A stretch of 64,000 nucleotides of DNA from assembly GCF_006345805.1 (NCBI RefSeq), contig NC_043003.1, positions 33,232,001 to 33,296,000 on the forward strand, written 5' to 3'. The notes under the pieces were generated by a model. That model searched no databases and was not told where the DNA came from. It saw nothing but the letters and a program-made list of their open reading frames with translations. This DNA is from Octopus sinensis (taxonomy: Eukaryota). Shown here one piece after another: positions 21,824-57,512 of the stretch. How positions within the stretch are numbered: position 1 is the stretch's first letter; every line of letters starts with the position of its first letter. The position numbers and the translations under genes were made by a program.

Positions 21824-22055
21824 AAGGCGGCGATTTGGCAGAAACGTTAGCACGCCGGGCGAAATGCTTAGCGGTATTTCGTCTGCGCTACGTTGTGAGT
21901 TCAAATTCCGCCGAGGTCGACTTTGCCTTTCATCCTTTCGGGGTCGATAAATTAAATACCAGTTACGCACTGGGGTCGATGTAATCGACTTAATACCTAT
22001 GTCTGTCCTTGTTTGTGCCCTCTGTGTTTAGCCCCTTGTGAGTAATAAAGAAATA
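21824..22055 (+). mobile_element. SINE family B, full-length long-tail form with 18-bp TSD
   Basis: Complete head (AAGGCGGCG..TGGCAGAAACGTTAGC..GAGTTCAAATTCC) to tail ..AGCCCCTTGTGAGTAATAAAGAAATA. It is flanked by GGTATCGCTTCATTCTGC (21806-21823) and GGTATCGCTTCACTCTGC (22056-22073). Confidence 0.92.
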
Positions 22056-23068
22056 GGTATCGCTTCACTCTGCGAAATCGAAACCCAAAAGTTCCGGTTA
22101 AAGTTATAATGTTGAGTTCATAATTACTTATGGCTTTTAAGGTTCCGCCAAAACTTTGCCCAGTTCAACACTTGCTGATATATATATATATATATATATA
22201 TATATATATATATATATATATATATATAATATATATATATATATATATGCATACACATATACATACATATATATATGCATGCATACATACATACATACAT
22301 ACATACATATATATTCATGTATATAGGATATAATATAATATATAGATATATAGATGTGTGTTTTGTTTGAGCATATGTGCGAGTGTGAGATCACGTTCGT
22401 GTGCTTGTTTATCTTTTGATATTTTATATCACACCATCTATTTTAGTGATATTATCTGAATATACTTATACTTTTTACAACTAATTGCATTATATATTCC
22501 CAAACCTTCAACGATATGACAACGATATGCCAGGATATTCAATAATTTTTACCGAAACATTAAGAAAGGATTTCAGTCGATCAAATAAGACGAAGGTAGG
22601 TAGAAAAAGTGATAATTATAATTACTTGCTTCTATATAAATTCAGTTTATTTCATTTATTTCTTTCTGTACACTATATTTTCTGCGATTCCGAGGTGCTC
22701 GTGAGGCATATTGCTATAATTATTTTCAGTGTGTGAATACATATTCGTTGTTGTAATATGTAAGTAGTATATGAATCATTTCACATTAGTTACAAATAAG
22801 AAAAAATATTGAATTACTCAACTAGCCTATTGACACCTATTTATATATATCCGATGAAATATCAACGAACTGCTTTGATATATACTGATTGAAAAGTAGA
22901 CGGGCGTCAAAACACTGAAATACTAGAAATCGTCAAAAATGTGTGTGCCTGTGTGCGTGAAAAATGGCATAACAGAATTTAAAACCAAACGGAATTTTTA
23001 TGATGTAGTCACATTGTGATATACAAACCTGCACATGCACCTGCACGCGTGGGCGCACAGATACAAAC

Positions 23069-23172
23069 ATCTATCTATTTATCTATCTATTTATCTATCT
23101 ATCTATCTATCTATCTATCTATCTATCTATCTATCTAGATAGATAGATAGATAGATAGATAGACAGATAGAT
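23069..23172. repeat. (TCTA)n directly followed by its complement (TAGA)n, a microsatellite palindrome
   Basis: The strand switch is at CTATCTAGATAG (23131-23142). Confidence 0.85.
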
Positions 23173-24399
23173 GTGTGAGTGCGTGTGTGTGTCAGTGTGT
23201 GTGTGTATATATATATATACATATATATATGTACGTACATACATAAACATACAAACTTCCATACATATAGTGAGAGGGTGAGAGGGGAGAGACAGAGAGT
23301 GGGGAGGTAGTTTGTAAAAGTTTTGATCATATTTGTTCATAAAAATATACTGATATGAAGAATATACTCCTGTAAATATCTGTAGAAATATATGGATTTC
23401 TGTGTCTCCCTCCCTCTCTCTCTCTCTCTCTCTCTAAATATATAAATGCGTGTGTGTGTGTGCTTGTGTGTGTGCGTGCGTGTCTGTATATATGTATATA
23501 TTAATAAATATATATATATTATAGATATATGTATGTATACATACATATATATATATACACACATATGTATATATATATATAATATATATATATTATATAT
23601 ATATATAATATATATATATATATATATATATAATATATATATATATTTATATGCATGTATATACCGAGAAAAACACACTCATGTACACATATATACATAC
23701 GGATGCATATATATAATATGGCTTGAAAGTCGGTTATCTTGTCATAAGGGGATTATATATGTTCTGTGTTAGTGACCGGCTTGAATTCTGCGAAAAAATC
23801 CACATTAATCCAAAAGATAAACAGAGTTACTTACGTGTATACATACATACATACATACATACATACATACATACATACTACATAAAACCATACATACACA
23901 GGTACGAACCTACGTACCTATATATACACACATGCCTAAATACATAAATACATACACACATACGAACCTACGCACCTATATATTTTCATGCATATAGGCA
24001 GACATAATGAAGTTTTCCTGTTGGTTTAGAAATATGAACGTCTGTTTGTTTAACTGGACACTGACACACTGAAATAGCATGCAAACTTGTGGCATATCTC
24101 TTAATCAAATTGTATCCTTAACTTAATTCTCCAGTTGAAACAACGTTAAATAGTATGACGAGGTTAGACATTTGAATTGCTGATACAACCAATCTAAGTG
24201 GACTCCACACTGTTTCCATCTCATCTAATTCACTTACAAGGTCAACTCAAGACTGTATTCATCTCAAGAGACACTTGCCTGAGAGTTACGCGCAGAAGAG
24301 TCACATACCCAAAAGTTACGCGCAGCGGAGCTGATTGAGAGTGTCCGTGACCATAATTTGATCCATCCATCCATCCATCCATCCATCCATCCATCCATC

Positions 24400-24882
24400 C
24401 AGAAGTTCAGATTTATACCTGTGGTTATAGGGACACTGGGATATTTAACATGTTGCCTAAACATCAATCTTGAGAAATTAGGCTTCTCACATCCAAGAAG
24501 AAGAAAGCTGATTCGAAGGCTACAGATTCAATTCATCACTGGATCTGTAAAATTCTGTAACAGTTTATCATTCAATTATATATGAGCATGCCTAGATATG
24601 CAAGTATATGCATGATAAGACAAATATAAGACAAAACATTCAAATCTGCACTATTCATACGTACATACATTCATACATACATATATACATGCATGCATAC
24701 ATACATGCATACATACATACATACATAATACATACATACATACATACATACATACATACATACAAAACTATCCTGTTGTTGATGTTGAAATTCCAATGAA
24801 AGCGCTTTGGATCTAGGTTAGAAACCGCGTTTTTCTATATTGGCAAGAAGTCTTGAAATAAAACTGAATAATGATATACATA
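24400..24882 (+). mobile_element. 5'-truncated RLE-type (R4/Dong/NeSL-like) LINE 3' end
   Basis: KFRFIPVVIGTLGY..NLEKLGF..LIRRLQIQFITGSVKFC fits the IP(I/V)VIG(A/T)LG motif that follows the RLE domain. It is preceded by (CCAT)n, and AATAAA is followed by CATA-like repeats. Confidence 0.6.
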
Positions 24883-55814: not shown

Positions 55815-55998
55815 ATTCGCCATGATACATCGCTAGCCACTAAACCTTTTCTATTTTCTCTTCCTGTTTATTTCTGTGTTCCTTTTTGTCGAAGAGCCTA
55901 GGCTCGAAACGTAAAAGACACCCTCACTTCCCGAGCGTTAAACTAATACATCTGTTTGTTGTTTACACACCCGTCTTTGCCTTTTGTTTTTGTAAATT
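55815..55998 (+). mobile_element. PLE pLTR-like terminal repeat with hammerhead-like motif (55882-55917)
   Basis: Homologous to 1280-1475. CTTT-TTGTCGA-A-GAGC-ctag-GCTC-GAAA-C-GTA-AAAG. Confidence 0.75.
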
Positions 55999-56525
55999 CT
56001 CTCTTTCTCTCTCTTTCTCTCTCCATATATATATATATATATATATATATATATATATATATATATATATATACAACTATTAACTATACATTATATAATA
56101 TAATATAATATTAAATAATATAATATAATATATATATATATATATATATATATATATATATATATATTATATATATATATATATATATATATCAATTTGT
56201 GTTGCAAGATTCATGATGTGAAACCATGTGTTGAAACGAAAATTGCTGTATTTCGGGATGGTCATTTTCTTTCTTTTATCGCCATTCCCAAATATAATAC
56301 ACACACACATTGCAGGCATTCACTTATATATTTTTTTACATCTCTCTCTTTGATGACGGTATACCCAGCTTATGCTATTGTTACGCAATATCACGGTCCA
56401 TGTGCTTGAGTAATCTAAAAACAGCTGTAAAACACTGCGTTCATGTTCTCTATCTTAATTAAATGTTTTCTTTCGAATGAAGTCAAATGTTTTGCTTTTT
56501 CCTTTTTAACTTAAAATGTATGTGC

Positions 56526-56764
56526 CTATCTATCTATCTATCTATCTATCTATCTATCTATCTATCTATCTATCTATCTATCTATCTATCTATCTATCTA
56601 TCTATCTATCTACCTATCTATCTAACTATCATCTTTCTATCTATCTATCTATCTATCTATCTATCTATCTATCTTCTATCTATCTATCTATCTATCTATC
56701 TATCTATCTATCTATCTATCTATCTATCTATCTATCTATCTATCTATCTATCTATCTATCTATC
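56526..56764. repeat. (TCTA)n microsatellite; resumes at 57513-57568
   Basis: Direct reading. Confidence 0.95.
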
Positions 56765-57512
56765 GTCACGCCTCTTTCCTTCAAACGGGAAGGAAGAGCT
56801 ATTTTCATCATCCTTGTGGCTATGGCGAAAGAATGTATCTGGTGGACGCGTCTGAAAGGATTGGAGACAAACACTTTCCACTCTGGTCAATCTCTCATCA
56901 ACTTCTTCAAGTACCACTTGAAAAGGAAAGTGAGAGTAGAGAGGCAAGTTTTGTCTAGCGAATGTTTTAAAAAAAGATGGGTGAATGTAGCAAGGATGGC
57001 ACGTATGAATGACGAAGCCACCTTGAGCATAATCCTATGAACCCAGAAATTGAAAACAGAGGGTTACCCACTTGCAAACAAATGTGGTAACATATAACAA
57101 TATTGACCAAGGTTACCGTGGTCTTTTTCGTAGGCTTTTCTTCCCACGGATAAACCTTACTTGCTTTCCCCTTTACACCATATATCATAACACTGTGATA
57201 CACGATCCCTATTGATCGTTCTTTTTTTCCTCTTCCCCTTTTTTTCCCCTTTTTTCTTCTTTTTTCATTTCTCTTTCCTTTTGTTCCTTTTCCTTTTTTT
57301 TTTCTTTCTATTCTTTTTATTTTATTCAATTTTTTTGTTGTTTTTTTGTTTTTTTTGTTCTTTTCTTCCCTGTTACGATCCCTCTTGATCGAAAACCTAC
57401 GCCACCCCCTTTTTTTTCTTTTGTTTTTTGTTCTCTTCATCCCCCAAAAGAAAAGCTCTACCTTGTAACTTGTCCCATCTGTGTGCAGCCCTGTGTGGCC
57501 AATAAAGAAACT
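56765..57512 (+). mobile_element. 5'-truncated Tx1/L1-like LINE 3' end within a (TCTA)n array
   Basis: Open frame to TGA at 57040: EGRAIFIILVAMAKECIWWTRLKGL..SLINFFKYHLKRKVRVERQVLSSECFKKRWV, fitting the Tx1/L1 ORF2 C-terminal AK..IW..R...F...W pattern. A T-rich 3' UTR and AATAAAGAAACT are followed by TATC repeats. Confidence 0.75.

What the first reader, a model, noticed from the sequence alone, without database searches (positions are those of the whole stretch)
22013..57510. The SINE-B long tail is homologous to the 3' end of the Tx1-like LINE (tail swap, SINE/LINE partnership)
Seen: SINE 22013-22053 TTGTGCCCTCTGTGTTTAGCCCCTTGTGAGTAATAAAGAAA and LINE 57470-57510 TTGTCCCATCTGTGTGCAGCCCTGTGTGGCCAATAAAGAAA match at 32 of 41 positions without gaps by my count, each at the extreme 3' end. 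Other SINE-B copies (3208, 27388, 27945, 29519, 33533, 58232) share the head and body but end in an unrelated tail (..GGCCTTGTGCCAAAATTTGAAACCAATATT). Established: SINEs borrow 3' ends from partner LINEs, and Tx1-clade LINEs are often target-specific. Inference: one SINE-B lineage captured a Tx1-family tail and with it target specificity. The true partner would be a sister family of the TCTA-associated element.
Basis: partly seen in the sequence, partly recalled or inferred. Interest (0 to 1): 0.75.

Follow-up and report, generated by a model that had tools for sequence, protein, structure and literature searches.

The report
Octopus SINE wearing a Tx1 tail
An abundant short jumping element in this octopus-like genome ends in a 41-base tail matching the end of an L1/Tx1-group long element, and it likely borrows a related element's enzyme to insert at GGTAT, a motif that also lies inside its own family's predicted promoter.

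Summary
In detail: 32 of 41 ungapped matches, both at the element ends. The best score in 500 shuffles was 27. The window has three long-tail SINE ends and two LINE ends. The LINE frame matches octopod APE-RT-zf-RVT proteins of the L1/Tx1 group, outside L1 proper. All 3 long tails abut GGTAT. Two have target-site duplications (18 and 12 bp), and two continue into the rest of another SINE copy at the GGTAT between the predicted A and B boxes. In four DNA runs the long tail is very abundant, and tail-to-own-body is the top listed joint. Both LINE copies sit in (TATC)n arrays and differ from the SINE tails at 6 of 41 columns, so the real partner is probably a sister family. Sister families exist as proteins, but their 3' ends could not be fetched (no genome held), so partner and target capture remain inferred. 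Tail sharing and Tx1-driven SINEs are known. A Tx1-derived tail on an animal SINE, and insertion into its own head, did not turn up in 8 searches; Repbase and Dfam were not seen.

The parts
21824..22055 (+). Full-length long-tail SINE (232 bp): head, body, long tail
   Evidence: Bounded by the duplication; summed contig depth rises from about 2e3 to 5e6 at 21820 and is 0-28 after 22071
21806..21823 (+). 5' copy of the 18-bp target-site duplication, starting GGTAT
   Evidence: 17 of 18 identical to 22056-22073; not part of the family by depth
22056..22073 (+). 3' copy of the target-site duplication, starting GGTAT
21836..21909 (+). Predicted Pol III promoter: A-like box at 21836, B-like box at 21897; head GGTAT at 21873-21877 lies between them
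   Evidence: My own motif patterns; no Rfam match, so tRNA origin is not shown
21992..22012 (+). Proximal long tail, from the point where long and short tails part; only its last 6 bases (CCTTGT) align to the LINE
   Evidence: Loose ends at 21990/21992 are the two short-tail types; alignment
22013..22055 (+). Distal long tail homologous to the LINE 3' end
   Evidence: 32 of 41; majority letter C at 22017 in 91% of X1 depth would make it 33
13934..14115 (-). 5'-truncated long-tail copy inserted in register into an old short-tail copy at the head GGTAT
   Evidence: 12-bp duplication GGTATTTCTTCT at 14127-14116 and 13933-13922; insert body 93% like the 22-kb copy, host body 74%
13755..13933 (-). 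Displaced rest of the host SINE (from GGTAT through B-like box, body and short tail); its head lies at about 14162-14128
7427..7457 (+). Long-tail end only, followed at 7458 by GGTATTTCG and the rest of a young SINE copy with a second short-tail type; no head and no upstream duplication seen
   Evidence: nhmmer E 1.1e-5
56765..57512 (+). 5'-truncated L1/Tx1-group LINE: 91 C-terminal codons of ORF2 (stop 57038-57040) and a 3' UTR of about 470 bases; (TATC)n on both sides
57470..57512 (+). LINE 3' terminus homologous to the SINE long tail
9182..9645 (-). Second, shorter copy of the same LINE family, also with (TATC)n on both sides in the same orientation
   Evidence: 88% identical to the first; tail 30 of 41 to the SINE tail, 35 of 41 to the first LINE tail

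Best explanation
A young, abundant subfamily of this SINE carries, in place of the older short tail, a tail whose last 41-47 bases match the 3' end of an octopod L1/Tx1-group LINE, and it is likely copied by the ORF2 protein of a sister Tx1-like family that would nick DNA at GGTAT. Shown: tail homology, terminal position, LINE group, GGTAT at 3 of 3 junctions, 12- and 18-bp duplications, abundance, repeated tail-to-own-body joints. Inferred: (1) a template switch near the CCTTGT motif, present in the old tail and in the LINE end, gave a SINE the LINE terminus; (2) the partner ORF2p binds that terminus in trans and does target-primed reverse transcription at GGTAT; (3) because many heads of the same SINE family contain GGTAT between the predicted A and B boxes, new copies land in older copies, and a truncated cDNA can join in register, leaving old head + new body + Tx1 tail and cutting the host's B box off from its A box; (4) Pol III read-through past the tail would copy GGTAT-plus-flank into the RNA, which could pair with the nicked strand and favour head sites.
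For: 32 of 41, above all 500 shuffles; 27 of 41 columns invariant in four tails. The LINE peptide is 63-73% identical to a set of ORF2 C-termini, and the full-length member P0006 has Exo_endo_phos + RVT_1 + zf-RVT. P0006 scores 340 bits to Xenopus Tx1L and 175 to human L1 ORF2p, and its group lies outside the clade of an L1-proper marker. Several sister families exist at 62-88% identity. Both LINE copies differ from both full SINE tails at 6 columns and abut TATC, not GGTAT. GGTAT occurs at 0.0008 per site. Heads with GGTAT are interrupted in 2 of 3 cases, heads without it in 0 of 7 (Fisher p 0.067). The joint 22060 to 21889 is the best-supported listed joint in 4 of 4 runs (22, 24, 20, 19 contigs), and printed between-letters show head sequence in register for three contigs. 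No T4 run lies between 21824 and 22135. Precedent: SINEU shares targets with Tx1-Mar (PMC4494074, main text read except the introduction-to-end references); 80 L1-Tx1 families, 13 recently active, in O. vulgaris (PMC13282606, part 1 and a supplement row).
Against: The partner was not found: no genome held, and scans of viral, metagenome and GTDB contigs gave nothing real. No LINE-type loose end and no empty-site joint appear in the cut tables (24 of 1607 loose ends, 15 of 908 joints shown). Five listed joints run from the short-tail switch point back into a SINE, so SINE-beside-SINE is not special to the long tail. Only three window junctions; the head test is not significant and partly circular. 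The tails do not fold better than shuffles (z -0.4 to +1.1), unlike textbook stringent tails. About 15 proximal tail bases do not match the LINE. The tree backbone is unresolved.
Confidence: 0.6

Rival explanations
1. The tail is Tx1-derived, but GGTAT comes from the RNA, not the enzyme: a master copy nested in a SINE head is read through, its 3' extension pairs with nicks made by a loosely specific Tx1-like endonuclease (possibly the (TATC)n family itself), and so GGTAT sites are selected.
For: No T4 terminator until 80 bases past the end; depth continues a few bases past the tail into TAGGTAT (bin 22054-22071); both targets contain TAT followed by C or T; co-transcription with the target is said to strengthen specific integration (PMC4494074, Discussion).
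Against: The 22-kb target matches the head only in GGTAT plus scattered bases; with homologous ends aligned, the LINE is followed by TATC and the SINE by GGTAT, i.e. different nick positions; six fixed tail differences from the (TATC)n family.
Confidence: 0.17
2. The nested forms are a composite (dimer-like) unit, long-tail copy plus short-tail remainder, amplified by the short tail's own partner; GGTAT is then an internal junction inherited from one founder, not a target.
For: The 7.4-kb locus looks like a 5'-truncated copy of such a unit (young body, no duplication seen); recurrent joints would also result.
Against: The 22-kb copy is a monomer with its own 18-bp GGTAT duplication in non-SINE DNA; at 13.9 kb the host half is old (74%) and the insert young (93%), with a 12-bp duplication; the two window hosts have different short tails.
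Confidence: 0.1
3. The flow ran the other way or by a third party: the LINE family took its end from the SINE, or both took it from another repeat, and the SINE uses a different LINE.
For: Only a 41-47-base terminal match links them; other Tx1-like 3' ends were not seen.
Against: In the SINE the long tail is the younger state; the two LINE copies (88%) are at least as diverged as the long-tail bodies (93%); LINE-to-SINE is the usual direction (PMC3747384, passages and Table 1).
Confidence: 0.08
4. Chance or convergence: a poly(A)-signal-like end plus TG/CT-rich repeats.
For: The long tail is built of degenerate CCTTGT-like motifs, which dinucleotide shuffles do not model; 1 of 500 shuffles with the end fixed reached 32.
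Against: 22 of 31 upstream of the AATAAA part (null largest 20 in 2000); four tails share 27 of 41 columns; both end at the same register; eight short tails give no such match.
Confidence: 0.05

Closest known systems
SINE/LINE pairs with shared 3' tails (UnaSINE/UnaL2, HE1/HER1, bivalve SINEs with CR1, CR1-Zenon, L2, Nimb partners; PMC3747384 Table 1, PMC4824008 and PMC11481361 passages)
   Same: One SINE head/body with alternative tails; a terminal 40-50 bases shared with a LINE 3' UTR
   Different: The donor is L1/Tx1-group. [quoted passage not shown]
Crocodilian SINEU / Tx1-Mar (PMC4494074)
   Same: A SINE thought to be moved by target-preferring Tx1 elements, inserting into another repeat, with 10-16-bp duplications and tandem copies around a duplication
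   Different: SINEU has U1/U2 heads and poly(A) tails, and no LINE sharing the SINEU-1 3' end was found; its target is a Mariner. Here there is a shared tail, a predicted Pol III head, and the target motif lies in the SINE's own family.
Microsatellite-targeting Tx1 families (Kibi, Koshi; crocodilian (TTCC)n/(TTTC)n families; PMC4494074)
   Same: Both LINE copies have one microsatellite on both sides in one orientation; APE-RT-zf-RVT ORF2 in relatives
   Different: Target is (TATC)n; forms its own well-supported clade with an Argonauta protein; relation to named Tx1 lineages unresolved
Octopus tRNA-derived SINEs OK, OR1, OR2 (Ohshima and Okada 1994; seen only as a citation, family names partly recalled) and the tRNA-Deu/tRNA-Core classes (PMC8967140 passage)
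   Same: Abundant octopus SINE with A/B-like boxes; from recall the body resembles a domain shared among animal SINEs
   Different: Could not be matched by sequence: the supplements searched held no match or were unreadable

Membership tests
L1/Tx1 group of non-LTR retrotransposons | ORF2 with APE endonuclease, RT and C-terminal zf-RVT | tested here: met
   Met through relatives: the window's 91 residues carry no Pfam hit but are 71% identical to P0006, which has all three domains
Tx1 clade proper | RT closer to Tx1L than to L1 proper | tested here: met
   340 vs 175 bits, from two searches of different libraries; outside the clade of P0208, which scores 591 to human L1
Tx1 clade proper | Monophyly with named Tx1 elements | tested here: inconclusive
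   FastTree on 68 of 152 rows puts them in one 56-row group at 91; IQ-TREE on 29 rows leaves the backbone open; only one named Tx1 was at hand
Tx1 clade proper | Target preference | tested here: met
   2 of 2 copies flanked by (TATC)n on both sides; such arrays cover 1% of the window; n is small
SINE | Short, non-coding, high-copy interspersed repeat with duplications | tested here: met
   232 bp; about 11 copies or pieces in 64 kb; 187,519-439,253 contigs laid per run
SINE | [quoted passage not shown] | tested here: inconclusive
   A- and B-like motifs by my own patterns; no Rfam match up to E 10; transcription not tested
Stringent SINE/LINE pair | Shared 3'-terminal sequence | tested here: met
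Stringent SINE/LINE pair | Conserved 3' stem-loop | tested here: not met
   Only 3-4-pair hairpins; none of 4 tails beats shuffles
Stringent SINE/LINE pair | Same target and duplication type as the partner, overlapping activity | not testable with these tools
   Partner DNA not available; the (TATC)n family has a different junction
Stringent SINE/LINE pair | Tail needed for trans-mobilisation | not testable with these tools
   Needs a retrotransposition assay
SINEU | U1/U2 snRNA-derived head and poly(A) tail | tested here: not met
   No Rfam match; no poly(A) at 3 of 3 ends

The most novel reading that the evidence does not exclude
A self-homing SINE: by taking a Tx1 tail it gained an endonuclease that cuts GGTAT between the A and B boxes of its own family, so each in-register insertion takes over an older copy's A box, splits that copy's promoter and converts the locus from the old LINE partner to the Tx1 partner; read-through RNA pairing with the target makes the cycle self-reinforcing. 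It would also be an animal case of stringent 3'-end recognition in the L1/Tx1 group.
Probability: 0.3. Interest if true: 0.8.

Novelty: new variant of a known kind. Interest (0 to 1): 0.55.

Why it matters
Whether L1-clade enzymes first recognised a specific RNA tail or any poly(A) has rested on plant and algal pairs (PMC3747384). A high-copy animal SINE with a Tx1-group tail and no poly(A) gives a direct test. A tail swap that also changes where copies land, into the family's own promoter, would be a concrete way for one SINE subfamily to displace another, in a genome where SINEs are about 12% of the DNA (O. vulgaris, PMC13282606). It also points to an unnamed Tx1-like endonuclease with a short GGTAT target.

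Tried and rejected
Whole genome: none held, so the decisive BLAST was impossible. Tail pattern in viral contigs 0, GTDB 0, metagenomes 4 hits, all judged chance: no SINE, LINE DNA or ORF2 match around them. ORF2 relatives in viral and GTDB contigs: none. Read laying: no empty-site joint and no LINE-type loose end among the rows shown; tables were cut and some events not counted, so this is no evidence of absence; summed depth is no copy number (tail/body ratio 0.22-0.36). Pfam on the window peptide: nothing. Rfam: nothing. Folding: no significant structure. Short tail as a distant Tx1 tail: rejected. A 152-row tree did not finish; smaller trees were built. ESM Atlas only repeated the Pfam domains. 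Earlier scan notes: none in 3 look-ups. Naming the SINE family from supplements failed; the octopus genome paper was not held. A weak tail-like hit at 34171-34190 (E 0.17) was set aside as a likely chance AATAAAGAAA.
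Full report
Setting. The window is 34% GC and rich in microsatellites. No whole genome is held. The LINE peptide is 95% identical over 37 residues to an Octopus bimaculoides UniRef entry and groups with an Argonauta protein, so I read the host as an octopus; the species is not determined.

The observation. 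22013-22053 and 57470-57510 match at 32 of 41 without gaps, and identity upstream is at background. The best score of 500 dinucleotide shuffles over both strands was 27; with the last ten bases fixed, 1 of 500 reached 32; the first 31 bases match 22 of 31 against an anchored null whose largest value in 2000 was 20. A 3-base gap adds CCTTGT. The same scan found three more ends: a long SINE tail at 13936-13976 (minus; 32 of 41 to the LINE), a truncated one at 7427-7457, and a second LINE copy ending at 9182 (minus; 30 of 41 to the SINE tail). Twenty-seven of 41 columns are invariant in the four full tails. Eight short tails show no such match to the LINE ends; the best of 16 comparisons was reached by 4 of 300 shuffles.

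The LINE. 56765-57037 encodes 91 residues with no Pfam hit but 63-73% identity to ORF2 C-termini from unnamed public sources. The full-length member P0006 has APE, RT and zf-RVT domains, scores 340 bits to Xenopus Tx1L and 175 to human L1 ORF2p (different libraries). In a 29-row ML tree its group is fully supported and lies outside the clade of P0208, an L1-proper marker (591 bits to human L1), but the backbone is open; a FastTree on 68 of 152 rows joined it with Tx1L in a 56-row group at 91. So L1/Tx1 group: yes; a named Tx1 lineage: unresolved. At least four sister types exist at 62-88% identity. Both window copies are 5'-truncated, 88% alike, and have (TATC)n on both sides in one orientation; such arrays cover 1% of the window.

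The SINE. The copy at 21824-22055 lies between 18-bp duplications starting GGTAT (17 of 18 alike). A- and B-like boxes lie at 21836 and 21897 by my own patterns; Rfam finds nothing. Laid on four DNA runs, depth jumps at 21820 and ends after 22071, the tail carries 22-36% of the body's peak summed depth, and loose ends at 21990-21992 are two short-tail types. Depth is no copy number, but the long tail is clearly a major subfamily; the window has 3 ends in 64 kb. Long-tail bodies are 93% alike, six old short-tail bodies 66-78%, so the long tail is the derived state; young short-tail copies exist too (7.47 kb, 92-93%).

The target. All three long tails end AAAGAAAT(A/G) and are followed by GGTAT, which occurs at 0.0008 per site. 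GGTAT is also in the family's head, between the predicted boxes. At 13.9 kb a truncated young copy sits in register in an old copy, with a 12-bp duplication on both sides; at 7.4 kb a tail runs into the rest of a young copy with no head upstream. Heads with GGTAT are interrupted in 2 of 3 cases and heads without it in 0 of 7 (p 0.067, partly circular). In the runs, 22060 back to 21889 is the best-supported of the 15 joints shown (of 908) in all four runs, and three printed contigs show head letters in register. Against over-reading: five listed joints lead from the short-tail switch point back into a SINE, so clustering is general, and no share can be computed from cut tables. One short-tail copy has a 12-bp duplication starting TAAAG, a different junction type.

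Mechanism. Most likely (0.6) a template switch near CCTTGT gave a SINE the end of a Tx1-like LINE, and a sister of the (TATC)n family, not yet seen, copies it to GGTAT nicks. Both LINE copies differ from both SINE tails at six columns and have another junction, which argues against the (TATC)n family as the working partner. In-register insertion would give the new copy the host's A box and part the host's B box from it. No T4 run occurs until 22135, so transcripts would read into the target; pairing of that extension with the nicked strand is a helper in my reading and the main cause in the first rival (0.17). A dimer amplified as a unit (0.10), reverse flow (0.08) and chance (0.05) are weaker. 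No tail folds better than shuffles, which departs from L2-type tails, where a stem-loop is essential (PMC4176376, passages).

What is known. Tail sharing and tail exchange are standard (PMC4824008, PMC11481361, PMC5786205, PMC4758252: passages). [quoted passage not shown] PMC4494074 (parts 1-4 of 5) links SINEU to Tx1-Mar by shared targets and found no LINE sharing the SINEU-1 3' end. PMC13282606 (part 1 of 3, supplement search) counts 80 L1-Tx1 families and 893 recently active unclassified SINE families in O. vulgaris; what I read does not treat tails or targets. PMC8967140, PMC9115989, PMC9223172, PMC5804259 and PMC3531059 were seen as passages only. Eight full-text searches showed no octopus SINE-Tx1 pair or self-targeting SINE; Repbase, Dfam, subscription papers (including the 1994 octopus SINE paper) and several supplements were not visible and may describe this family.

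Verdict. A new variant of a known kind; interest 0.55.

Noticed in passing
window 48639-49130 (+): Broken RT fragment of another non-LTR clade (RVT_1 E 4e-6; only 21-33% identity to the L1/Tx1-like proteins); clade not determined, a possible relative of the short tail's partner.
   Followed up: partly
P0003 (O. bimaculoides UniRef A0A0L8GCS6): Gene model that starts with 37 residues of this LINE family's C-terminus and goes on into an unrelated Thr/Asn-rich and then globular part with no Pfam hit; probably a model joining two repeats, the second perhaps an ORF1.
   Followed up: partly
window 7545-7597: A second short-tail type on a young body, directly followed by another SINE copy at 7598; the runs show two short-tail types as loose ends.
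   Followed up: partly
short tails, e.g. 3395-3405, and long tail 22031-22043: Both tail types can form a small hairpin with the loop CUUGU closed by a C-G pair; not significant by alignment or folding.
   Followed up: partly
window 3800-4236, 30297-30746, 46271-46696, 52099-52372, 58900-59337: Another repeat family in two parts split by a microsatellite, five copies, 74-87% alike.
   Followed up: no
window 1272-1467, 5820-5931, 17806-17918, 55807-55997: A further interspersed repeat family, about 79% alike.
   Followed up: no
window 39429-42131: Degenerate tandem region of several 0.4-0.6-kb units, 77-90% alike; 39290-39401 and 42741-42852 form a 112-bp inverted pair at 96% around it, like a DNA transposon.
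   Followed up: no
window 7802-7880 and 8212-8292: Inverted repeat of about 80 bp at 86%, 330 bp apart.
   Followed up: no
window 15150-15260: tRNA-like head (A- and B-like boxes) of another SINE type, followed by GGTATTTCG without a long tail.
   Followed up: no
P0164-P0193 (unnamed ENA sources): A large sister clade of full-length ORF2 proteins, about 40% identical to the octopod group, host unknown.
   Followed up: no
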